Shown here: positions 1 through 51,650 of the stretch, one piece after another
Layout: each line of letters opens with the position of its first letter
How positions within the stretch are numbered: position 1 is the stretch's first letter
Sequence record: PP886229
Direction: 5' to 3' (one strand)
Source: Escherichia phage vB_EcoM_E9
DNA length: 64,000 nt
Notes under the pieces: generated by a model
The model's input: only the letters and a program-made list of their open reading frames with translations
Told to the model about the DNA's origin: nothing
Databases searched by the model: none
Program-made: the position numbers and the translations under genes

Positions 1-1050
1 GCCCCCTTAACATTCTCTTAACAATTTCTTAACAATCCCTACATAGTTATGCTTGTTAGAGACTTGTTAGCCCCTTGTTAAATCTCTGTTAAGACCACGT
101 AAAAGCCTTGTAAGAGTCTTTAGCATAGCCTTTAAAGCCTCTGTAAAGCCCTATAAAGAGGTGTCTACATAGTTGGGGTGTAATTACTAGGAAGAGACTT
201 AAAAGAGCTTACAAAGAGCTATAGAGAACTTTTAAGAGGTATGTTTAGAGAATCACTAAGAAAGAGAGGGAACTATAGACCAAGAGATAGTGACCATGTT
301 AATAGCTTGTTAAAAAGATTAAACACTTGTTAGGAATTTGTTAATTATCTTAACAAAATAACTCTTAAAAATTAACTTGTTAGCTCTTATTAGTCATCTG
401 TTAAGACTCTGTAAAACCTATGTATCAACTGTTAAGAAACTGTTACACCCTTGTTAGCTCTGTTAAGAATCTGTTAAGACCTCTGAAGAGATGTTAAGAG
501 GTTGTAAGAACTGTTAAGAGATTGTTAAGGATATTTTAAAATTTTGCAAAGGGGATGTTACAGGGATGTTAAGGGCTACCAAGCAGATATACATCTTCTA
601 CAGATATTTTTGAGTTCCTTCAAAGACCCTAAAAAATGACTTGATAACCCTATTTTATAAAAATTTTAAAATTCTGAATAATTACCTAGACAGTCTTTTA
701 AAAATACAGGCATAAACAGGCTTATAAGATACCTTGTTAGTACCGTGTTAGACCTTGTGAGATAAGGTCTGAAAAGATATTCCTGTTAAGTTTGTTAAAA
801 CAGTCTATATAGAGGCTTAGTAATACCTAGTGAACACCTATAGAGGGTAACATAGCTAACCTAGAGATTAAGAGGTGTATAGGGGCTTCTAAGAGGGTGT
901 AGAGGTGTGGTTAAGGTGATTGTATAGGTTGCTAAGAAGGCTTGTTAGAGGGCTATTTAGAAGGTTTATACAGAGGGCTATTAAGACCACTAGATAGTTA
1001 CTAAGATACTATATAGTACTATATAACTATATATAGAGAGTAAGCTTAAG
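1..1050. repeat. Non-coding region saturated with short direct repeats, core TGTTA(A/G) (CTTGTTAG, CTGTTAAG, ATGTTAAG variants), more than 30 copies
   Basis: No ORF in the track before 1055; motif recurs at e.g. 60-100, 300-350, 400-530, 730-800, 1050-1065. Confidence 0.7.
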
Positions 1051-1074
1051 AAGGATGTTAAGAAGGGTAGATAT

Positions 1075-1083
1075 TTATCCACA
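1075..1083 (+). promoter_or_regulatory. Single DnaA-box-like 9-mer TTATCCACA next to an AT-rich stretch (1110-1160)
   Basis: Exact consensus string; a single 9-mer could occur by chance. Confidence 0.2.
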
Positions 1084-1193
1084 TATGATGGTGACCCAGA
1101 GGTTGGGACAACCGATGAAATTTTATAAAAATTATAAATTTCGTAAAATTTACTCAATAAAAAGCCCCCAATTAAGGAGGCTCTTAAGATATT

Positions 1194-8454: not shown

Positions 8455-8681
8455 TTTTCAGTTCTCCTGCGATTTATAATTTTGCTGCAATAGAGAAACG
8501 AAGTAAACTCACTGGAAGAAACCATTAAGTGTTGTTCACTAGATTGAGCCATTGCCCTGAAATACATTCCAGTCAAAGCATCATAGTGACTATTCTTTCC
8601 AATTGAGGTTATATAGCCATGACTCTTTGCAGTTTGATATAAATCTATAATATCTGCGATTTCTAATTGGGAACTACACAT
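8448..8681 (-). CDS. hypothetical protein
   Basis: 77 aa ORF. Confidence 0.4.
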   Translation of the reverse strand: MCSSQLEIADIIDLYQTAKSHGYITSIGKNSHYDALTGMYFRAMAQSSEQHLMVSSSEFTSFLYCSKIINRRRTEKC

Positions 8682-8845: not shown

Positions 8846-8923
8846 GGCAGACCTACAGCTTTAAGTAAGATGGTACAGTAATCCATACAACAAGTCAAGA
8901 ACTATTGCAAGTTAAAAAAGTTG

Positions 8924-8946
8924 TTGACAAAGTACTTGACAAGGTG
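8924..8946 (+). promoter_or_regulatory. Conserved double-TTGACA element TTGACAAAGTACTTGACAAGGTG in a divergent promoter region
   Basis: Near-identical 23-mer recurs at 51031-51053; both sit where gene orientation switches from minus to plus. Confidence 0.5.
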
Positions 8947-9073
8947 TAGGCTTATAAATACTTAGAAGATAACTTAAAAGGTTCCTCTAAAAAGGCTATT
9001 TAAACAGATATCTTTCTGGATATCTATCTTTTATCTTAAAAGCCTTTTAAGAGGTCTTATAAGAGGCATACCA

Positions 9074-9445
9074 ATGAAAAACAGAACAAACAAAGGCCAG
9101 TTTAAAAAAGGCCAGTCTGGAAACCCATCTGGAAGACCAAAAGGCTCTCGTAACAAAAGCTCACTTGTAAAAGCTCAACTGACCATTGATAATTCTGCTG
9201 AGTTTGCTGCAAAGTTGTTTGAAGCAATTGTTACAAGGGACGCTGCTAAGCTTGCAGAGTTCGGTTTAACGACTGACGATGTAAACCTGAAGTCGATGAT
9301 GGAAGCTGGTAAAACTATCATGACTCACTCAGCAGGTGAGATGAAAGCCATTGCAGCAGACACTAAGAAGACTCCTGATAACGGTGGTCAGTCTCAGACA
9401 GATAACAAACCAACGTTCTCTGCTGTAGCGACTCTCAAAAAATAA
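9074..9445 (+). CDS. hypothetical protein with N-terminal Gly/Lys-rich motif (GQFKKGQSGNPSGRPKG)
   Basis: 123 aa ORF. Confidence 0.5.
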   Translation: MKNRTNKGQFKKGQSGNPSGRPKGSRNKSSLVKAQLTIDNSAEFAAKLFEAIVTRDAAKLAEFGLTTDDVNLKSMMEAGKTIMTHSAGEMKAIAADTKKTPDNGGQSQTDNKPTFSAVATLKK

Positions 9446-9526: not shown

Positions 9527-10942
9527 ATGAGCGAATTATTTAAACATGCGCACCTTCATGTAGGTCGAACTGAAAATGGTGCTGTAAACCATACTTCATC
9601 AATGTCTGCTCTTGTGGACTTTTACAAAGCTGCTGGTTCCAGCCGTAGTAATGTAGAAATCTTACCAGACTTGTTCTACAAAGCTTTGCGTGAGGATGTT
9701 GATGTTGCAGTTCGTATTTTACTGCATATGCGAGATGTACGAGAAGGTATGGGTGAGCGTAAAGCTTTCCGAACTGTTTTACTTCAAGCGATTGAAGATA
9801 AAGTTTTAGAGCCTACACAGGTTCTTCGCATTATGGATAAGATTGCAGAACTTGGTCGTTTTGATGACTTCAAAATCTTCGTAGGTACTCGTTTTGAGAC
9901 AGATGCCTTCAAACATTTAGAAGCAGCATTACTAGACCCTGCAACATCAGGTTTAGCGGCTAAGTGGTTACCACGAGTAAAACCACGCCACAAACAGTTT
10001 GTAAAACGTTTCTGTAAGTTTGCAAACTTAAGTGAGAAGGAGTATCGCACACTGTTATCTGCACTGTCTGATACGGTTGAGCAAAAAATCTCTGCTAATG
10101 AGTTTGGTAAGATTGACTACAGCAAGATTCCTTCACTCGCTGCTGCACGTTACCAAAAGCTCTTTAACCGTAAAGATGGGGAACGTTACAAAGCTTACAT
10201 TGAGTCCTTATCAAAAGGTGAGGCTAAGATTAACGCTGGTGCTGTTTACCCATACGATGTGATTAAATCTATCAAGTATGGTAATGCAGATGTTGCTAAT
10301 GAGCAGTGGAAAGCACTACCAAACTGGATGGCAGAAGGTGAGAACATCTTGTGTATGACTGATGTTTCAAGCTCAATGTCTTGGGTGAATATTGGTTCAA
10401 TCACTGCCCTTGATATTGGTGTATCACTTGCTTTGTATGTAGCAGAACGCAACACTGGTTGCTTTAAGAATGAGTTAATGGTTTACTCAACAAACCCTCA
10501 CTTCATCGAACTGAGTGGTGATTTACGAAACCGTCATCGTCAGGTAATGCGTCATGTTGAATATGGTTCAACTAACTTACAAGCAGCTTTTGACCGTATT
10601 CTTGAGGTAGGTAAGCGAAACAACTTGACTCAGAAAGATATGCCAAGTAAGCTTATTATCTTCTCCGATATGGAGTTCAATCAGGTTGATGGAGCTAACG
10701 GTCGTACAAACTTTGAAGCAATTCAGAGTAAGTACAAAAAAGCTGGATACGAAATGCCACAACTAGTATTCTGGTACTTAGCAAACCGTAATGGTACTTG
10801 CGAAGTATCTGTTAAGGATAATGGTGTAGCGATGGTATCAGGGTTCTCTCCAGCCACTTTAAAAGCTCTGCTTGGTGGTGAGAAGTTTGACCCAATCAGC
10901 GTAATGCTCAAAGCAGTAATGATTGACCGTTACATCTGGTAA
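9527..10942 (+). CDS. von Willebrand factor A (vWA) domain protein with large N-terminal domain (TROVE/DUF2828-like suspected)
   Basis: 471 aa; MIDAS-like DxSxS motif (CMTDVSSSMSW) in the C-terminal half. Confidence 0.55.
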   Translation: MSELFKHAHLHVGRTENGAVNHTSSMSALVDFYKAAGSSRSNVEILPDLFYKALREDVDVAVRILLHMRDVREGMGERKAFRTVLLQAIEDKVLEPTQVLRIMDKIAELGRFDDFKIFVGTRFETDAFKHLEAALLDPATSGLAAKWLPRVKPRHKQFVKRFCKFANLSEKEYRTLLSALSDTVEQKISANEFGKIDYSKIPSLAAARYQKLFNRKDGERYKAYIESLSKGEAKINAGAVYPYDVIKSIKYGNADVANEQWKALPNWMAEGENILCMTDVSSSMSWVNIGSITALDIGVSLALYVAERNTGCFKNELMVYSTNPHFIELSGDLRNRHRQVMRHVEYGSTNLQAAFDRILEVGKRNNLTQKDMPSKLIIFSDMEFNQVDGANGRTNFEAIQSKYKKAGYEMPQLVFWYLANRNGTCEVSVKDNGVAMVSGFSPATLKALLGGEKFDPISVMLKAVMIDRYIW

Positions 10943-10961
10943 AAAAGTTTTAAAAAGGGTA

Positions 10962-10990
10962 TTGACAATGTGTTTGATACCCTTTAATAT
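10962..10990 (+). promoter_or_regulatory. Sigma70-like promoter TTGACA-N17-TAATAT upstream of the tRNA array
   Basis: Exact -35 hexamer, 17-nt spacer, -10 TAATAT; -35 sits inside inverted repeat GGGTAT/ATACCC. Confidence 0.5.
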
Positions 10991-11108
10991 GTTCTACATA
11001 GAAACGAAATGAGAGCTTTTCTAAGATACTGAAAAATATTTTAAAAAAGTTCTTGACAACCACTAAAAAATAATGTTAAAGTGGTTACATAGAGTTTGAA
11101 AAGTTTAT

Positions 11109-20748: not shown

Positions 20749-22095
20749 ATGAGTTCGAATATCTTCAGACTTGCTGATAGATTATTCAACCAACCTTTAC
20801 TAGCCACTGAATCATTAGCTCACTCAGCAGCAACTTATGTGAATAACAGATTGCTGGGTGATGTCCAAGCAGCAGTAAACTTTGATAAACCCAAAGGTGA
20901 AGCAAGAAGTCTTTTAAAAGTAAGAGATGACATTGCTATTATCCCTATTATGGGTGGTTTAACTCATCGTATGACATTCATTGATGCAATGTGTACAGGT
21001 GGTTTAAGCTCTTATGAAGGTTTACGTAGAGGCTTTGACGAAGCTCTAGCAGATGAGTCAATCAAGACTATTGTTCTGCACATTGATTCTGGTGGCGGTG
21101 AAGCTTCAGGTTGCTTTGAATTAGCACGTCACATCATGGCTTCAAGAGGCCAAAAGAAAATTATTGCTTATGTAGATGAGTTCGCTTGTTCCGCTGCATA
21201 TGCTCTTGCATCTTCTGCTGAAGAAATTATTGCATCACCAGATGCAGATGTTGGTTCTATTGGTGTAATCATGGTTCATCAGGAATTAACTAAGGCATTT
21301 GAAAAGAATGGCGTAACAATTAACGTCATCAAAGCTGGTGAGTTTAAAGGTATGGGTTCACCATTCCAAGCACTTTCAGAAGAAAGCAAAGAAAGACTTC
21401 AAAAGAGAATTAATGATACCTACGCAACCTTTACAGGTTTTGTAGCTGAATCTCGTAATCTCTCTGAAGAAGCTGTAAAGAATACTGAGGCAAATGTTTA
21501 TTCTGCTCAGGAAGCTCTTGAACTTGGTTTAATTAACTCAATCATGTCTCAAGATGATTTCTTAAATTACTTACAAGGTTCTGAAGAGGCTCCTGTAAGT
21601 TTAAACGTTAACAATTCAGGTGAAGAAATGACTGAACAAGAAAAGCAAGAACTAGAAGCTTTGCGTCTTCAGGTTGCTCAAATGAAAGCTAAAGAACAGG
21701 AAGCTGCTTTGTCAGATTTGACTAATAAGATTTCTGCTTCTGCTGAAGCTTTTGGATTTGATGCAAAAGAAGCTGCAACGACTATTTTAGGTGCTGGTCT
21801 TGATAACCCTCTGAGCGTTCTGTTTATGAATGCTATGGAAGGTGCTAACCAGAAACTTAATGAAACTATCGCGTCCCATGCTTCTGCAATGGAAGAAAAA
21901 GAATCAGAAATTACCAAGCTGAAAGAAACTGCTGGTGCTGTTCTTGAACATTCCAACGCTATGGAAGAAGTGGGTAATGACGGCGAAGCTGATTTGGTTG
22001 AAGAAGAAAAAGAACCAGCTAAGAATGCTTCCGAAGACACCGCTGAACAACGCAAACTGGCTCTCCAGAATGCTCTAAAATCTCTTATCAAATAA
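20749..22095 (+). CDS. prohead protease (S49/ClpP-like) fused to a scaffold-like acidic coiled-coil C-terminus
   Basis: 448 aa; VLHIDSGGGEASG motif; C-terminal Ala/Glu-rich region. Confidence 0.65.
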   Translation: MSSNIFRLADRLFNQPLLATESLAHSAATYVNNRLLGDVQAAVNFDKPKGEARSLLKVRDDIAIIPIMGGLTHRMTFIDAMCTGGLSSYEGLRRGFDEALADESIKTIVLHIDSGGGEASGCFELARHIMASRGQKKIIAYVDEFACSAAYALASSAEEIIASPDADVGSIGVIMVHQELTKAFEKNGVTINVIKAGEFKGMGSPFQALSEESKERLQKRINDTYATFTGFVAESRNLSEEAVKNTEANVYSAQEALELGLINSIMSQDDFLNYLQGSEEAPVSLNVNNSGEEMTEQEKQELEALRLQVAQMKAKEQEAALSDLTNKISASAEAFGFDAKEAATTILGAGLDNPLSVLFMNAMEGANQKLNETIASHASAMEEKESEITKLKETAGAVLEHSNAMEEVGNDGEADLVEEEKEPAKNASEDTAEQRKLALQNALKSLIK

Positions 22096-43144: not shown

Positions 43145-43474
43145 TTAATCTGCCAGCCTTAAATTAAAGTTAACACCAAATTTTTCACATACTTCCAACA
43201 TAAACTCAAGGGAGACATTACCAGTGAGATTGATTATGTTGGATACACGAGCCTGAGAGATACCACAAATTTTAGCAACTTGCTCTTGAGAAAGACCTCT
43301 GGATTTAATCTCTCTCTTAAAACGATGTGCAACGAAGTCTCTCATTTCGTCTACATCCATTGGACAAATATAACTCTCCATTTCAGCTTCTCTGTCAGCC
43401 TCCCAATCATCTTGTGGAGCATAAGGGTCAAAAACCTCATTCATCTTTCTTCTTCCGTTTGCGTGAAGTGTCAA
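43145..43474 (-). CDS. helix-turn-helix (XRE/Cro-type) DNA-binding protein
   Basis: C-terminal LSQEQVAKICGISQARVSNI HTH signature; acidic N-terminus. Confidence 0.6.
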   Translation of the reverse strand: MTLHANGRRKMNEVFDPYAPQDDWEADREAEMESYICPMDVDEMRDFVAHRFKREIKSRGLSQEQVAKICGISQARVSNIINLTGNVSLEFMLEVCEKFGVNFNLRLAD

Positions 43475-44139: not shown

Positions 44140-44372
44140 TAAGGCTACTGCCATCCTTCCATACATTACCTCACCTGACCTGACCTGACCCTACCTAACA
44201 TTACCGTGCCACACCTCACTTAAAAACCCTCTTAAAAGACTCTTAAGTGATGTAATCGAATTTTTATGTAGCTCCGATTAACTACCCATACCTCACCTCA
44301 TCCAACCATACCATGCCTTACCAGACCGCACCTTACCTTACTAAAAGACCCTGTTTAAAGACCTTTTAAAAA
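44140..44372. repeat. Composite C-rich, G-poor repeat block 1: two sub-units of head motif, (Y)ACC-rich core and conserved tails
   Basis: Tails CACTTAAAAACCCTCTTAAAAGACTCTTAAGTGATG (44217-44251) and AAAAGACCCTGTTTAAAGACCTTTTAAAAAG (44342-44372) recur in block 2. Confidence 0.7.
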
Positions 44373-45519: not shown

Positions 45520-45792
45520 AATGTGGCTACTACCATCCACCCATACCTCACAACACCATGCCATACCCGACCGGACAAGACCAGACCCTACCGCGCCAGA
45601 CCTCATTAAAAGACCCTCTTTAAAGACCTTTTAAAAAGGTAAGTCTCATTTTAATGTAGCTGAGACTAACTACCCATACCCTACTTTACCTTACCGTACC
45701 GTACTTTACCCGACCGTACCGGACAATACTTAACCCTACCTCACCCGACCGGACATCACTTAAAAACCCTCTTAAAAGACTCTTAAGTGATG
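45520..45792. repeat. Composite C-rich repeat block 2, paralogous to block 1 with sub-units in swapped order
   Basis: Shares GGCTACT(G/A)CCATCC, TGTAGCT...TAACTACCCATACC and both tail motifs with block 1. Confidence 0.7.
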
Positions 45793-48270: not shown

Positions 48271-50970
48271 TTAGTGAACCTCAAGCCAGCTTTTACCAAC
48301 CTTACCAGTACCTGTAACAAGTGTTTCTTTCTTAAGACCTAAGTTCTTAGAAGCTTGTCCATAATACCAGTCAGTAACTGCTTTCACTTCTGCCGTCATA
48401 CTTTCTGGACATTCCCAGCTTGTTTCATCGTGATATGCGCAGAGCAAACGAGCACCAATAGCTGGTTGACGACCATTCAACTTCATCAAACCTTCGTCAA
48501 TCATACGACGACAAGCAAGGTTAATTGCCTCGTTTTGAATCTGAGCCTCCGAACCCATAAGCAAATAATTCAATAGCTTATGTGGAGATTTACACCATAA
48601 CCAAGCTCCAGCAACCTTTACAAAACCCCCTTTAGAGATTGCAGCAGTCTTACCAAAAACCTCTTCAAGTGCCTTTTTAGTCGCTTTGTAGTCAGCTTCT
48701 AAGTCATCCAGCAGCTTCTTAATTTTAGGCAAACGAATAAAGTAAGTCTGTTTGGTCAGTGCACCTTCCTGAGTAGTTGCAGCTTTAATCGTCTTAGCAA
48801 ACTTCTCATCACCTGCACCGAACAGCAGTGCATAGATACCATTCTTAGCTTTCTTACGACCCTTACTAATCTCATGAAGAAGATTCTCATCCTGAGTAGC
48901 TCGGCAAGTCAAGATATCCTGCTCATCATTCAAGCTAAAGTAAATACTGTTCAGTGTGTGTGCATCAGTCCCTGAATAGACAACGTAAAGGTCATTCTCA
49001 GAGTCATAGCGTAGGTACTTATCAATCTCTGGATTGAGGTACTCATCAAAGTGTTTGCAGTAATAGCATCCATCTTCTTGACGAATAAACTCAATCTCTT
49101 CTTTACCTTGCGTTACCGCTTTGGTGAAGTCTTTGTCACCCATAAAGTTACAAAGAAGAACTAGCTGGGCTGAGTTCATGTCTACAGAGACAACGTTAGT
49201 ACCTTCTTCACAAATCCACACTGCCCTCATTGGTTCCCCATAGACAGCAGCACCAGACGGTACGTTTACAATACCATACTGTGTCATACGTCCAGTTGAA
49301 GTACCAAATACCATTGCACCAGCACTAAGGCGACCATCAGGACGAATCTGGTTCAGCCAACCTTTTTCATCATCCTTTGAGTTCTCAATAGTTCTGCGTC
49401 GGTGCATCAAAGTATAGTACTTAGCAATCTTCTGTCCAAGCTCACCTTCAATCGTATCATAAGATGATTCAGTAAGTTTTGGTGAAGTACGGATTAAGCA
49501 AGGCTCAAGCAAATCTGTGTACTTCTTCACAGACCAGTTATGTTCAATGTACTGGACACCTTCATGTTCAACATAACTCAAACCACACCGTTCCACCATC
49601 TCATCCCACTTAGGATGTTTTGTAATCATCTTTTTGTTGTCTTTGAAGCGACAAACCTTAACAGGACGACCATCAGAGTCTTTCTTATAGTTCCAGTCAT
49701 CTGGAATCCAACCAACTGATTTCAAGTAGTCTTTAACAACTGCTACCTGAGTCATACGAGAAACTTCGAACTCAATTGGTGTATATGGTGCATCAATCAA
49801 ACCTGTGTAGCGACTTGACTCAAGCTTAAAGTGGTTAACAACATGACTGTTATAGTACTTCACAGTTTTAACTGTTTTTACTGGCTTCCAGTCTTTGCAC
49901 TTCTTACCAATCTTTGCATTCAACTCATTGCAAATTGCACGAGCATCCTTCATTGCTACAAAGCCTTCCTTGTGCTCTTCGCCAGTTACAGAGTTGGTTG
50001 GTGTATAGCAATTCCGCTTTTCAATGTTAAAAATCTTTGTAGTTGGCTTACCAAATGGCTTGATTTCATATGTCTGCATCTCACCGTTACGTACCTGCTG
50101 ACGATACTTTGTCTTAGGGTACTTGGTAATTCTCTTCAGTCCATCTGCATGACCTAATGCTTCAACATACTCATTCCAAGCTTTTGCAAATTCTTCTCCA
50201 GTGACTTTACCTTTGGTCTTAATAGTTGGAGGAAGATGTGGTTCAACTTCTGAAGCAAGCTCATTAGTCAACTTGTCAAGTTCCTTTACATGGAACTCCA
50301 TAAGTTCTTTATCAGCTTTCCAACCATTGATAGCTTGTTGACTCATCCAGAAAGATGTTTCTTTAGCTCGCATGTAGGTTTCATAAGTATCTACGCCACA
50401 CTTCTTCAGCTTGAGATATTCATTATCCAGTGCGCGTTTAGTTTTGGCGTTAATACGGATATCTTCCACAACACGAGTGAAGATTTCTGCATTCCACACA
50501 CCCCAATGTTCAATCTCTGGTTTACGTACACCAACACGAGCACCCCATGCAGCCAAGCCATGAGCACCTTTATAACCTTTTGGAGTTGGTCTATCCATCC
50601 ACTGAACACGGGACTGGATAAGAGAATCCTGAAAGAAATTACTCCACGGCTTACACTTTGGATTATCAAAGTTCCACAAATCAGGTGCAATGTGATTGAA
50701 AACCCACCAGTCATACCCTAGACCATTATGGATGCAAAGCCGTTTTGCCTTTAACGCAAACTCAACACCTTCACGCAAACCACCCTTAATGTACTTGGTA
50801 TACTTGTGACCGAGGATAGGCTCATCTGTAAAGACCCATACAGGTGGCTCTTCATCGTCAGATTTATAGTCTGCGAAAGCCATTACGTGTACTTTAGTGA
50901 ACTCAAGGAGTAAACCATCAGTTTCTGTATCACCAACTAAATGTAAGTTTTTAAAATCTACGTTTTCCAT
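48271..50970 (-). CDS. DNA polymerase, family A, with 3'-5' exonuclease domain
   Basis: Exo motif VGDTETDG near the N-terminus; YHDE motif C near the C-terminus; ATG at 50970 follows a GAGGGAG RBS. Confidence 0.8.
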   Translation of the reverse strand: MENVDFKNLHLVGDTETDGLLLEFTKVHVMAFADYKSDDEEPPVWVFTDEPILGHKYTKYIKGGLREGVEFALKAKRLCIHNGLGYDWWVFNHIAPDLWNFDNPKCKPWSNFFQDSLIQSRVQWMDRPTPKGYKGAHGLAAWGARVGVRKPEIEHWGVWNAEIFTRVVEDIRINAKTKRALDNEYLKLKKCGVDTYETYMRAKETSFWMSQQAINGWKADKELMEFHVKELDKLTNELASEVEPHLPPTIKTKGKVTGEEFAKAWNEYVEALGHADGLKRITKYPKTKYRQQVRNGEMQTYEIKPFGKPTTKIFNIEKRNCYTPTNSVTGEEHKEGFVAMKDARAICNELNAKIGKKCKDWKPVKTVKTVKYYNSHVVNHFKLESSRYTGLIDAPYTPIEFEVSRMTQVAVVKDYLKSVGWIPDDWNYKKDSDGRPVKVCRFKDNKKMITKHPKWDEMVERCGLSYVEHEGVQYIEHNWSVKKYTDLLEPCLIRTSPKLTESSYDTIEGELGQKIAKYYTLMHRRRTIENSKDDEKGWLNQIRPDGRLSAGAMVFGTSTGRMTQYGIVNVPSGAAVYGEPMRAVWICEEGTNVVSVDMNSAQLVLLCNFMGDKDFTKAVTQGKEEIEFIRQEDGCYYCKHFDEYLNPEIDKYLRYDSENDLYVVYSGTDAHTLNSIYFSLNDEQDILTCRATQDENLLHEISKGRKKAKNGIYALLFGAGDEKFAKTIKAATTQEGALTKQTYFIRLPKIKKLLDDLEADYKATKKALEEVFGKTAAISKGGFVKVAGAWLWCKSPHKLLNYLLMGSEAQIQNEAINLACRRMIDEGLMKLNGRQPAIGARLLCAYHDETSWECPESMTAEVKAVTDWYYGQASKNLGLKKETLVTGTGKVGKSWLEVH

Positions 50971-51030
50971 TTTTACTCCCTCTAAAATCATTAACCTCAT
51001 ACATTACTGCAAAAAATTATAAAAAGCAAG

Positions 51031-51053
51031 TTGACAATGTACTTGACAAGGTG
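51031..51053 (+). promoter_or_regulatory. Second copy of conserved double-TTGACA element TTGACAATGTACTTGACAAGGTG
   Basis: 22 of 23 nt identical to 8924-8946; in the divergent region between polymerase and the plus-strand block. Confidence 0.5.
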
Positions 51054-51227
51054 TTAATCTTTGCGAAGTGGGTTTTTACTTAAAAGGTTACTTAACAGTT
51101 TAACTATACAGATACTTTAAAACTCTTAAAAGATTATTTAATAGCTTTTAAAAAGCTTTAAAGTATAACGTATAGAATACGTTAAGATAAAAGATTAAAA
51201 CTTAATAGTTACTTAAAAGAGGCTTAC

Positions 51228-51650
51228 ATGCAGAAAATGTTTGTTCACCCAGACATAGCTGACTTTGTTAGGGCTTTGCAGAAGTTGGAAGAACTTGACA
51301 TTGCTGCTCAACGGGAATATGCTCACCATCACAGGAGAATGGTTGATATACAACATGAAATAGAGTTGTCTGAAAACTATGAAGATGACTTAAAATGCTC
51401 TGTATTTGAGCATATGAAAGATGTTGCTACAGCGAGACGTAAAGCTAAAGATACAGTTGCTTTACTAGATTCTCTTAAAAAGAGGTTGCAAAGTGGTACA
51501 GACCTGTGTAATCTAGCGTCACTGATTAACGATGTTGAAACTTCTTGGGATAGACATTACTATCCACGTTCTGAAAAGACACTTGACTTTTCTTCATCAG
51601 AAAACTTAAAATATTCTAGAAAGAAACTTAACCAACTGAGAGAGAAATAA
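51228..51650 (+). CDS. hypothetical protein
   Basis: 140 aa ORF. Confidence 0.5.
   Translation: MQKMFVHPDIADFVRALQKLEELDIAAQREYAHHHRRMVDIQHEIELSENYEDDLKCSVFEHMKDVATARRKAKDTVALLDSLKKRLQSGTDLCNLASLINDVETSWDRHYYPRSEKTLDFSSSENLKYSRKKLNQLREK

What the first reader, a model, noticed from the sequence alone, without database searches (positions are those of the whole stretch)
8924..8946. Conserved 23-bp double-TTGACA element at both minus-to-plus strand-switch regions
TTGACAAAGTACTTGACAAGGTG (8924-8946) and TTGACAATGTACTTGACAAGGTG (51031-51053) are 22/23 identical and 42 kb apart. Each sits in a divergent intergenic region where transcription switches from a minus-strand block to a plus-strand block. 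Two tandem -35-like hexamers 12 bp apart without a clean -10 suggest a regulator-binding or timing-control site rather than a simple promoter. Both regions are also rich in CTTAAAAG-type motifs reminiscent of the 1-1050 array.
Basis: seen in the sequence. Interest (0 to 1): 0.5.

Follow-up and report, generated by a model that had tools for sequence, protein, structure and literature searches.

The report
Twin-hexamer host-type phage promoter, two copies
The repeated 23-bp element is most likely the core of two sister host-RNA-polymerase promoters that start the two rightward gene blocks of a Felix O1-like phage; this is ordinary, except that a second TTGACA inside the promoter spacer is strictly conserved for a reason still unknown.

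Summary
The two 23-mers are 22/23 identical. They are the only copies in the window and in a relative's complete genome, and each lies in a divergent intergenic region of a Felixounavirus.

Comparison across genera best fits a sigma-70-type promoter:
- an A-tract resembling an UP element;
- the first TTGACA as the -35;
- a 17/18-bp spacer;
- a weak -10 that keeps only T-A-n-n-n-T (TAGGCT, TAATCT).

Predicted promoters were already placed on this element: P41 in the Felix O1 paper for copy 1, and promoter features at both copies in one GenBank record. Neither the paper nor the records mentions the second TTGACA. It lies in the spacer and is invariant in Felixouna-, Susp- and Mooglevirus at both sites, while the 6 bp between the hexamers vary freely. 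Erwinia/Hafnia relatives have only one TTGACA. The same twin-hexamer module also occurs next to gene 55 in many uncultured T4-like phages.

The CTTAAAAG-type motifs are real. In leader 1 they form the arms of a conserved long hairpin.

No transcription start map exists, so the promoter is inferred and the second hexamer's role is open. I consider a host polymerase contact more likely than a regulator site. Overall this is a mostly ordinary finding with one unexplained detail.

The parts
8912..8923 (+). A-tract TTAAAAAAGTTG just upstream of hexamer 1 (copy 1); resembles the proximal UP-element subsite
   Evidence: Sequence. The same AAAAGTTnTTGACA context recurs at other promoter-like sites in the window (11045, 12476, 45850 minus). 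It is conserved as an A-run in other genera. The UP-element consensus (AAAAAARNR at -46 to -38) is quoted from memory.
8924..8929 (+). Hexamer 1, TTGACA: inferred -35 of rightward promoter 1
   Evidence: Invariant in 10 haplotypes from 31 loci anchored downstream. It equals the -35 of P41 in the Felix O1 paper.
8930..8935 (+). Variable 6 bp between the hexamers (AAGTAC here)
   Evidence: Variants are aagtac, aaggac, aagcac, ttcctc, aatgac, agggga and agcctc.
8936..8941 (+). Hexamer 2, TTGACA, in the spacer at about -23 to -18; conserved, function unknown
   Evidence: Invariant in all Ounavirinae haplotypes sampled without selecting for it. An exact second hexamer at other offsets occurs in about 0.03-0.13% of TTGACA contexts.
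8945..8952 (+). TG followed by the inferred -10, TAGGCT, 17 bp after hexamer 1
   Evidence: Variants TAGGCT, TAGCCT, TAGTGT and TAAGTT keep T, A and the final T. TG is TA in Felix O1 itself. The consensus scan does not call this site.
8958..9073 (+). Leader 1, AT-rich (GC 0.29 over 8947-9073). A long imperfect hairpin at 8973-9063 has CTTAAAAG/CTTTTAAG motifs as its arms, an apical hairpin at 9006-9025, and a 3' arm that covers the AAGAGG ribosome-binding site of ORF 9074-9445
   Evidence: Minimum free energy -28.4 kcal/mol, z = -3.0. All 33 predicted pairs are kept in 6 lineages, with 1 compensatory pair. The leader is nearly invariant across three genera. Motif enrichment. The transcript start is inferred, not mapped.
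8870..8898 (-). Candidate leftward promoter 1: TTGACT (8898-8893), N17, TACCAT (8875-8870)
   Evidence: Reported by the scan tool. The block is invariant across genera. A weaker TTGCAA lies 12 bp upstream on the same strand and is not fully conserved.
51021..51030 (+). AAAAAGCAAG upstream of hexamer 1 (copy 2). It is A-tract-like, and its complement TTGCTT could serve as the -35 of the leftward promoter
   Evidence: Invariant in Felixouna-, Susp- and Mooglevirus while the sequence further upstream diverges.
51031..51036 (+). Hexamer 1, TTGACA: inferred -35 of rightward promoter 2
   Evidence: Invariant. It is the only TTGACA retained at this site in Kolesnikvirus, where TACATT follows at N18.
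51043..51048 (+). Hexamer 2, TTGACA, in the spacer at about -24 to -19
   Evidence: Invariant in 10 haplotypes, while the 6 bp before it vary: atgtac, atgcac, atgcgc, atacac, attcac, aagcac, aatcac, aactgc, aaccac. Absent from Kolesnikvirus.
51052..51060 (+). TGt followed by the inferred -10, TAATCT, 18 bp after hexamer 1 (extended -10 geometry)
   Evidence: Variants TGtTAATCT, TGtTAGTCT and TGgTAGTCT across genera. Listed by my own scan with TG flagged. The consensus tool does not call it.
51066..51227 (+). Leader 2, AT-rich (GC 0.24 over 51054-51227), with 5 CTTAAAAG-type motifs and a hairpin at 51167-51183 (ACGTAT-aga-ATACGT); it precedes ORF 51228-51650
   Evidence: Motif enrichment. The hairpin shows compensatory CG to UA changes in Mooglevirus. 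The whole-leader fold is only modestly better than shuffles, z = -2.1.
51001..51029 (-). Candidate leftward promoter 2 for the DNA polymerase block: TTGCTT (51029-51024), N17, TAATGT (51006-51001)
   Evidence: The -10 varies as TAATGT, TAGGGT and TAGTGT, keeping T-A-n-n-G-T across genera. Read by eye and not reported by the scan tool.

Best explanation
**What it is.** Each 23-mer is the upstream part of a promoter for the host sigma-70 RNA polymerase. Reading 5' to 3':
- an A-tract that can serve as an UP-like contact for the polymerase alpha subunits;
- the first TTGACA as the -35;
- a 17-bp (copy 1) or 18-bp (copy 2) spacer;
- a TG;
- a weak -10 of the form TAnnnT (TAGGCT at 8947-8952, TAATCT at 51055-51060).

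**What it drives.** Transcription would start near 8959 and near 51067. It would run through long, conserved, structured AT-rich leaders into the two rightward units. Unit 1 carries DUF5681, a Ro-like RNA-binding protein, the tRNA cluster and the virion genes. Unit 2 carries replication and nucleotide-metabolism genes. The two promoter-plus-leader modules are paralogues.

**The second TTGACA.** It is not a second promoter. It is an extra, selected element inside the spacer. I think it is most likely read by the polymerase itself, as an additional docking site for sigma region 4 that aids capture or holds the enzyme, rather than by a phage repressor.

**Shown versus inferred.** Shown: the sequence anatomy, the conservation pattern and the paralogy. 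Inferred: promoter activity, the start sites and any role of hexamer 2.
For: - **Identity and layout.** The window is a Felixounavirus and the elements sit at the two minus-to-plus switches.
- **Conservation footprint.** Samples anchored on downstream sequence did not select for the element. In them both hexamers are invariant, the 6 bp between them and the 2 bp after hexamer 2 are free, TG is kept, and the -10 keeps only T, A and the final T (alignment; Felix O1).
- **Kolesnikvirus.** At copy 2 it keeps only hexamer 1, then N18, TACATT and the shared cttttcg. That identifies hexamer 1 as the -35.
- **Upstream context.** AAAAGTTnTTGACA is shared with other promoter-like sites in this phage.
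- **Earlier annotation.** P41 in PMC3185647 is hexamer 1 of copy 1. Promoter features are annotated at both copies in MZ726792 and at copy 1 in KR014248.
- **Timing data.** Felix O1 RT-PCR puts genes 41, 42, 96 and 97 in the same class.
- **Uncultured T4-like phages.** They carry AAAAAGTTG-TTGACA-N6-TTGACA-N5-TAnAGT. Anchored only on the upstream part plus hexamer 1, hexamer 2 is TTGACA in 72 of 79 distinct sequences, while the next 5 nt carry little information.
- **No shared proteins.** No phage regulator or other protein near the element is shared with 1.1 Mb of those loci; the only hit was a weak dNMP-kinase match (29% identity, E 3e-6). This favours a universal reader such as the host polymerase.
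Against: - No transcription start site has been mapped for any Felixounavirus in the papers I could search.
- Both -10 hexamers match TATAAT at only 3 of 6 positions, and the consensus scan does not call either site.
- In copy 1 the TG sits one base closer to the -10 than in a canonical extended -10, and it is TA in Felix O1.
- I know of no described base-specific polymerase contact at -23 to -18 that would read TTGACA, so the proposed role of hexamer 2 is conjecture.
- The HTH_3 protein at 43145-43474 is found only in the genera that have the double hexamer. That fits a regulator model equally well.
- In the T4-like phages the element points antisense to every neighbouring gene. A plain gene promoter should not do that.
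Confidence: 0.6

Rival explanations
1. Operator model. The pair TTGACA-N6-TTGACA is a two-half-site binding site for a phage (or host) DNA-binding protein that overlaps the -35 and the spacer. The protein switches both rightward units off or on together during infection. The HTH_3 (Cro/CI-type) protein at 43145-43474 is the obvious candidate.
For: - The hexamer spacing is fixed at 12 bp at both loci and in every lineage, while the distance to the -10 differs by 1 bp between the copies. The pair therefore behaves as a unit.
- An HTH_3 protein is encoded in the window.
- By tblastn it occurs in 258 Felixouna-, Susp- and Mooglevirus records and in none of the Erwinia/Hafnia records, which have a single TTGACA.
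- The genes downstream of both copies fall in the same RT-PCR timing class in Felix O1.
Against: - Cro/CI-type proteins usually bind inverted repeats, and these are direct repeats.
- The co-occurrence reflects a single phylogenetic split, which many other genes must share.
- Uncultured T4-like phages conserve the same second hexamer, yet no regulator is shared with this phage across 1.1 Mb of their loci; the only protein hit was a weak dNMP-kinase match. Two unrelated regulators would then need the same site, identical to the -35 consensus.
Confidence: 0.2
2. Two overlapping promoters 12 bp apart. Each TTGACA is the -35 of its own promoter, giving two start sites that may be used at different times.
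For: - GenBank record MZ726792 annotates copy 1 as hexamer 2 + N15 + AATACT.
- A related promoter family in the early region of relatives (AAAGTACTTTACAAGGGG...TAAAGT) uses the position of hexamer 2 as its -35, with N17 to TAAAGT.
Against: - No -10-like hexamer lies 16-18 bp after hexamer 2 in copy 2 (AAGTGG) or in the T4-like group (TGTAGC).
- In copy 1 the candidates are TACTTA at N17, which lacks the final T, or AATACT at a short N15. Both change register or sequence in Moogle- and Suspvirus (ACACTT).
Confidence: 0.1
3. Promoter-primed replication origins. A strong promoter fires into an AT-rich, repeat-bearing region at a divergent junction, and the transcript opens or primes DNA, as at T4 oriF/oriG or the T7 primary origin (both recalled from memory).
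For: - Both leaders are very AT-rich (GC 0.29 and 0.24) and carry repeated motifs.
- Both lie at divergent junctions.
- In the T4-like phages the module points away from all genes, which suits a non-coding role.
Against: - No origin data exist for this phage group, and no initiator protein was identified here.
- The GC-skew turns coincide with changes in transcription direction, so they are uninformative.
- The repeats in leader 1 are explained by a conserved hairpin that ends on the ribosome-binding site of the next gene. That points to mRNA-level function.
Confidence: 0.05
4. No function. The second hexamer is a relic of a 12-bp tandem duplication, kept alike in the two copies by gene conversion.
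For: - The unit AAGTnnTTGACA occurs twice in a row in copy 1 (the hit at 8912 shifted by 12).
- In this genus the two copies resemble each other even in the variable 6 bp (AAGTAC versus ATGTAC).
Against: - Conversion tracts are continuous, so they could not preserve both hexamers while the 6 bp between them diverge freely.
- The T4-like phages conserve hexamer 2 at 72 of 79 distinct sequences, next to poorly conserved bases. Every locus fetched from them showed one copy.
Confidence: 0.03

Closest known systems
Strong sigma-70 promoters of virulent and temperate coliphages with an UP element and/or extended -10 (for example lambda PL, TTGACA-N17-GATACT, and T7 A1; sequences recalled from memory)
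   Same: Consensus -35 TTGACA, a 17-18 bp spacer, a -10 keeping TAnnnT, an A-rich tract just upstream, TG before the -10 (copy 2), and a position at the head of a transcription unit.
   Different: A second, strictly conserved TTGACA sits inside the spacer. The -10 is weaker than in the classic examples. No start site or activity has been measured.
Predicted promoter P41 of phage Felix O1 (PMC3185647) and 'promoter' features in GenBank records MZ726792 and KR014248
   Same: Same locus. P41 at 21515-21541 begins at hexamer 1 of copy 1. MZ726792 marks promoters at both copies.
   Different: All of these are pattern matches, and they pick different -10 hexamers: TATAGG at N15, AATACT at N15 from hexamer 2, and GTTAAT at N16. 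The Felix O1 paper states that nothing comparable was found in the 96-97 intergenic region. Neither the paper nor the GenBank features I read mention the paired hexamers or their conservation.
PeSL cassettes (promoter-early stem-loop) of T4-like phages (PMC2839356, PMC4122927)
   Same: Short, repeated, near-consensus sigma-70 promoter modules shared between places in a phage genome. Relatives of this phage carry a PeSL-like family (57-bp repeats with promoter plus GGGGCTTA...TAAGCCCC stem) whose promoter half resembles the 23-mer.
   Different: The two copies here sit at fixed, conserved junctions rather than in variable gene regions. They have no adjacent G+C-rich stem-loop, and there are only two of them.
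Lambda CII / P22 C1 activator sites (TTGC-N6-TTGC straddling the -35; motif as quoted in PMC4837284, mechanism from memory)
   Same: Direct repeats beginning TTG that overlap a -35 region.
   Different: The period is 10 bp there and 12 bp here. Those are tetramers flanking a poor -35, whereas here there are two full consensus hexamers, the first itself a perfect -35. No CII homologue was identified.
-35-like element used by sigma region 4 in the paused complex at lambda PR' (from memory)
   Same: A second TTGACT/TTGACA-like hexamer near the promoter that sigma region 4 binds at a non-standard distance from a -10-like element.
   Different: At PR' the element lies at the start of the transcribed region, 1 bp from a pause-inducing -10-like sequence, and it works with the Q protein. 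Here hexamer 2 lies upstream of the real -10 by 5-6 bp, and no Q-like protein is known.

Membership tests
Sigma-70 (housekeeping) promoter | -35 hexamer close to TTGACA | tested here: met
   Perfect TTGACA at 8924 and 51031, invariant in all lineages.
Sigma-70 (housekeeping) promoter | -10 hexamer 16-18 bp downstream with A at position 2 and T at position 6 | tested here: met
   TAGGCT at N17 and TAATCT at N18. T, A and the final T are kept while the inner bases vary across genera. Each matches TATAAT at only 3 of 6 positions, so the consensus scan misses them.
Sigma-70 (housekeeping) promoter | Correct orientation and position upstream of a transcription unit | tested here: met
   Each copy faces the first plus-strand gene of its block, 145 and 192 bp from the ATG.
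Sigma-70 (housekeeping) promoter | Transcription start 5-9 bp after the -10 and dependence on the sigma-70 holoenzyme | not testable with these tools
   No start-site data were found for this phage group.
Extended -10 promoter | TG at -15/-14, one base before the -10 hexamer | tested here: inconclusive
   Copy 2 has TGtTAATCT, which meets the feature. Copy 1 has TG directly abutting TAGGCT, and Felix O1 has TA there.
PeSL promoter/stem-loop cassette | Promoter joined to a G+C-rich stem-loop, in many copies, at borders of variable genes | tested here: not met
   No terminator-like stem adjoins either copy. There are only two copies, at junctions conserved across three genera.
CII/C1-type activator site | TTGC-N6-TTGC direct repeat (10-bp period) around a weak -35 | tested here: not met
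   The period is 12 bp in every lineague sampled, the repeat is TTGACA and the -35 is perfect.
Cro/CI-type (HTH_3) operator | Dyad-symmetric site bound by a phage HTH dimer | tested here: inconclusive
   A phage HTH_3 protein exists and co-occurs with the double hexamer. The hexamers are direct repeats, with only the partial symmetry of TTGnCAA. Binding cannot be tested here.
Known RNA family in the leaders | Match to an Rfam model | tested here: not met
   Nothing credible in either intergenic region at E up to 1; only tRNAs reach the gathering threshold in the window.

The most novel reading that the evidence does not exclude
The paired hexamers define an undescribed promoter architecture. 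The spacer carries a second sigma region 4 docking site, 12 bp from the -35, that is needed for promoter function or for its switching during infection. Felix O1-like phages would have gained it at both of their master rightward promoters. A large group of uncultured T4-like phages would have gained it independently, or by transfer, at a conserved promoter next to the late sigma gene 55 that points antisense to its neighbours.
Probability: 0.2. Interest if true: 0.6.

Novelty: new variant of a known kind. Interest (0 to 1): 0.35.

Why it matters
Felix O1-like phages are widely used for Salmonella and E. coli typing and biocontrol. Their temporal programme is nonetheless unknown: the genome paper found no phage RNA polymerase or sigma factor and left regulation open. 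Fixing the two likely start points of the rightward transcription units, and showing that they are sister modules with conserved structured leaders, gives concrete targets for start-site mapping and reporter work. The invariant second TTGACA is a small, cleanly testable puzzle about what can be read inside a promoter spacer. Its recurrence in unrelated uncultured T4-like phages suggests the answer may apply beyond one phage genus. If mutating hexamer 2 has no effect, the finding reduces to two ordinary predicted promoters.

Tried and rejected
1. **Second promoter from hexamer 2.** Rejected because no conserved -10 lies 16-18 bp downstream at copy 2 or in the T4-like group.
2. **Leftward use of the hexamers.** Their complements read TTGTCA, but the spacing to the only good minus-strand TATAAT (51021-51016) is 10 or 22 bp, and that TATAAT is not conserved in other genera.
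3. **T4-type late promoter.** TATAAATA occurs at 8953-8960 but is not conserved; Moogle- and Suspvirus have TAATAAAA.
4. **Other sigma factors and host-factor sites.** I compared the element by eye with remembered consensus sequences for sigma-32, -24, -28 and -54, and for Fis, IHF, PhoB, TyrR, FNR and MerR-type sites. Nothing fitted, and most would need the variable 6 bp.
5. **Known RNA families.** None in either intergenic region.
6. **First collection scan.** TTGACAN6TTGACAAGGTG also returned coding-sequence coincidences, for example L033, where it encodes VDKALDKV. I discarded these.
8. **Bacterial genome scan.** The 25-mer pattern gave 9 scattered Firmicutes hits, about what chance predicts. 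I did not pursue them.
9. **Proteins shared with the T4-like loci.** None except a weak dNMP-kinase match.
10. **Cultured T4-like phage carrying the module.** None in the phage collection.
11. **Literature on start sites or transcriptomes for this genus.** Nothing found. A CRISPRi-ART study of the relative SUSP1 has gene-fitness data only.

Full report
**1. Observation**

They are the only matches with up to three mismatches, and none appeared in 100 shuffles.

The window is a Felix O1-like myovirus of genus Felixounavirus. It is 97-99% identical to, and collinear with, Escherichia phage vB_EcoM_H12. That complete genome also holds only these two copies at up to 3 mismatches.

ORFs and the H12 annotation confirm that each copy lies in a divergent intergenic region:
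- Copy 1 lies between the minus-strand block ending at 8681 and the plus-strand block starting at 9074. That block carries DUF5681, a Ro-like RNA-binding protein, 26 tRNAs, terminase and virion genes.
- Copy 2 lies between the minus-strand block with thymidylate synthase, ligase and DNA polymerase, and the plus-strand block of replication and nucleotide metabolism starting at 51228.

These are the gene 40/41 and 96/97 junctions of Felix O1.

**2. What the comparison shows**

I collected both regions from other genera and from viral metagenome contigs. I anchored the searches on conserved sequence downstream of the element, so the element itself was not selected for.

Copy 1 (31 loci, 10 haplotypes) reads:
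- A-tract, then TTGACA;
- six free bases (aagtac, aaggac, ttcctc, aatgac, agggga, agcctc; aagcac in Felix O1);
- TTGACA, then A;
- two free bases, then TG;
- TA, three free bases, T (TAGGCT, TAGCCT, TAGTGT, TAAGTT).

Copy 2 (10 element-bearing haplotypes among the 33 anchored loci) reads:
- AAAAAGCAAG, then TTGACA;
- six free bases, then TTGACA;
- AGGTG, one base, then TAATCT or TAGTCT.

The Erwinia/Hafnia genus Kolesnikvirus keeps only one TTGACA at the copy 2 site, followed at 18 bp by TACATT and then the shared cttttcg. Its copy 1 region has a different arrangement.

A hexamer that keeps exactly T, A and the final T at 17-18 bp from a perfect TTGACA, itself preceded by an A-run, is the footprint expected of a sigma-70 promoter. 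Here the first hexamer is the -35. The consensus scan tool misses both sites because the -10 hexamers match TATAAT at only 3 of 6 positions.

**3. Prior knowledge**

The Felix O1 genome paper lists P41, TTGACA(N15)TATAGG at 21515-21541. I checked that this starts at hexamer 1 of copy 1. The same paper says nothing comparable was seen in the 96-97 region, although the twin element is there in the relatives I sampled. It also says that no phage polymerase or sigma factor was found and that temporal control is unknown.

GenBank record MZ726792 marks pattern-matched 'promoter' features at both copies, using different hexamers. KR014248 marks copy 1. Felix O1 RT-PCR places genes 41, 42, 96 and 97 in the same 25-min class.

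I found no start-site map or transcriptome for the group. The promoters are therefore predicted and already annotated. What appears nowhere in those papers or records is the pairing of the hexamers and its conservation.

**4. The second hexamer**

It occupies roughly -23 to -18 (copy 1) or -24 to -19 (copy 2). Spacer bases there are normally unconstrained, yet it is invariant while its neighbours vary.

Among about twenty perfect-TTGACA promoter-like sites in the window, only these two have a second perfect hexamer at +12. Across about 3,850 distinct TTGACA contexts in all fetched loci, an exact second hexamer at control offsets occurs in 0.03-0.13%.

It is not the -35 of a second promoter. 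The sequence 16-18 bp after it is AAGTGG in copy 2. In copy 1 the candidates are poor and not conserved.

Most hits are uncultured T4-like myoviruses, identified by gene 55, 47, 46 and uvsW neighbours. Their nearest isolates are cyanophages and Methylophilales phages.

I re-sampled that group with an anchor that does not include hexamer 2:
- hexamer 2 is TTGACA in 72 of 79 distinct sequences (the rest include TTGCCN and TTGACT);
- it carries 1.6-2.0 bits per position, against 0.4-1.0 for the next five bases;
- TAnAGT follows at N17 from hexamer 1, often with TGn before it.

In those phages the module abuts the gene 55 start codon but points the other way, antisense to all neighbouring genes. 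No protein near the element is shared with this phage across 1.1 Mb of those loci; the only hit was a weak dNMP-kinase match. No cultured phage outside Felixounavirus carries the module.

**5. Mechanism**

I commit to this reading: both elements are host sigma-70 promoters that start the two rightward units. Hexamer 2 is a selected extra element of the promoter.

I favour the polymerase itself as its reader, through sigma region 4, for three reasons:
- the sequence is exactly the -35 consensus;
- the few variants seen in the T4-like group keep TTG, as -35 elements do;
- two unrelated phage groups that share no regulator conserve it.

This step is inference. I know of no described contact that would read those positions.

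The main rival is an operator for a phage regulator that overlaps the promoter. In its favour:
- the 12-bp spacing is fixed at both loci, whereas the distance to the -10 differs by one base;
- the window encodes an HTH_3 protein (43145-43474);
- that protein is present in the three genera with the double hexamer and is not detected in Kolesnikvirus.

That co-occurrence rests on a single evolutionary split, and Cro-type proteins normally bind inverted repeats. Overlapping promoters, a promoter-primed origin and a functionless relic are less likely, for the reasons given under each rival.

**6. The surrounding module**

The similarity between the two regions extends beyond the 23-mer. Both leaders are nearly invariant across three genera, more so than the flanking genes.

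The CTTAAAAG-type motifs are strongly enriched: 5 per leader against about 0.07-0.08 expected.

In leader 1 these motifs form the two arms of a long imperfect hairpin at 8973-9063:
- minimum free energy z = -3.0;
- all 33 predicted pairs kept in six lineages, with one compensatory pair;
- the 3' arm covers the ribosome-binding site of ORF 9074.

Leader 2 has a short hairpin at 51167-51183 with compensatory CG to UA changes in Mooglevirus. Its overall fold is only modestly better than shuffles. No Rfam family matches either leader.

Candidate leftward promoters lie back-to-back with each element. One is TTGACT-N17-TACCAT at 8898-8870. The other is TTGCTT-N17-TAATGT at 51029-51001, whose -10 varies as TAnnGT across genera.

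**7. Verdict**

- **Observation:** confirmed.
- **Interpretation:** partly right. The element is a promoter core, not a non-promoter site, but it carries a conserved extra hexamer that a plain promoter does not need.
- **Novelty:** a new variant of a known kind.
- **Interest:** modest, because the promoters are already annotated and nothing here is measured. It is raised somewhat by the strict conservation of hexamer 2 and its recurrence in unrelated uncultured phages.

Noticed in passing
L402:4605-4665 (IMGVR_UViG_3300023174_000084); also L031:11966-12044 and about 130 other loci: Uncultured T4-like myoviruses carry a highly conserved module, ACCATAAAAAGTTG-TTGACA-aagggc-TTGACA-N5-TAnAGT-ccacGGTGTAGCCCC. 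It directly abuts the start codon of the late sigma gene 55 but points the other way, antisense to every neighbouring gene. It could drive an antisense or small RNA, prime an origin, or be a mobile promoter cassette.
   Followed up: partly
window 8973-9063 and 51167-51183: Both 5' leaders are conserved more strongly than the flanking genes across three genera. Leader 1 folds into a long hairpin that ends on the ribosome-binding site of ORF 9074. Leader 2 has a small hairpin with compensatory changes. Both may be translational or stability control elements.
   Followed up: partly
window about 44216-44252 and 45756-45792: A 37-nt repeat, TCACTTAAAAACCCTCTTAAAAGACTCTTAAGTGATG, which is itself an inverted repeat, occurs in two intergenic regions of the minus-strand block. 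Each copy is preceded by runs of CCTGACC/CCTCACC-like short repeats.
   Followed up: no
window 10954-10991 and 11059-11090: Two promoter-like sites ahead of the tRNA cluster lie inside inverted repeats: AAGGGTAT[TGACA...]ATACCCTT and AACCACT...AGTGGTT. The first corresponds to the bidirectional terminators t42/t43 of the Felix O1 paper, so promoter and terminator overlap.
   Followed up: no
window 1-1100: The non-coding array at the left end is built mainly of TGTTAAGA (17 on the + strand) and CTTGTTAG (8) words. CTTAAAAG-class words occur only 7 times, so the array is not the same repeat family as the leaders.
   Followed up: partly
window 8930-8935 and 51037-51042: Among Felixounaviruses that are more than 96% identical, the 6 bp between the hexamers are the main variable spot of the otherwise fixed intergenic regions. 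In copy 2, 3 of the 4 variable columns in 100 lie there, and most changes are transitions.
   Followed up: partly
window 43145-43474 (minus strand): A 109-aa HTH_3 (Cro/CI-type) protein is present in Felixouna-, Susp- and Mooglevirus. It is not detected by tblastn in any Erwinia or Hafnia Kolesnikvirus record. This phyletic pattern matches that of the double hexamer.
   Followed up: partly
window 50968-51000: The longest DNA polymerase ORF starts at 51000. A good ribosome-binding site (GAGGGAG) instead supports the ATG at 50970, as annotated in Mooglevirus. That leaves room for the leftward promoter.
   Followed up: partly
L002 (vB_EcoM_H12 81.5-84.5 kb; outside the window): The early-gene region of relatives carries repeated promoter-plus-stem cassettes (AAAGTACTTTACAAGGGGCTTA...TAAGCCCCAGATAAAGAGC, the 57-bp repeats of Felix O1). 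They resemble the PeSL cassettes of T4-like phages, and their promoter half resembles the 23-mer.
   Followed up: no
window 9527-10942: A Ro-like RNA-binding protein (DUF2828/DUF7788, phrog_850) is encoded next to a 26-tRNA cluster. Rfam found no Y-RNA-like partner in the window.
   Followed up: no
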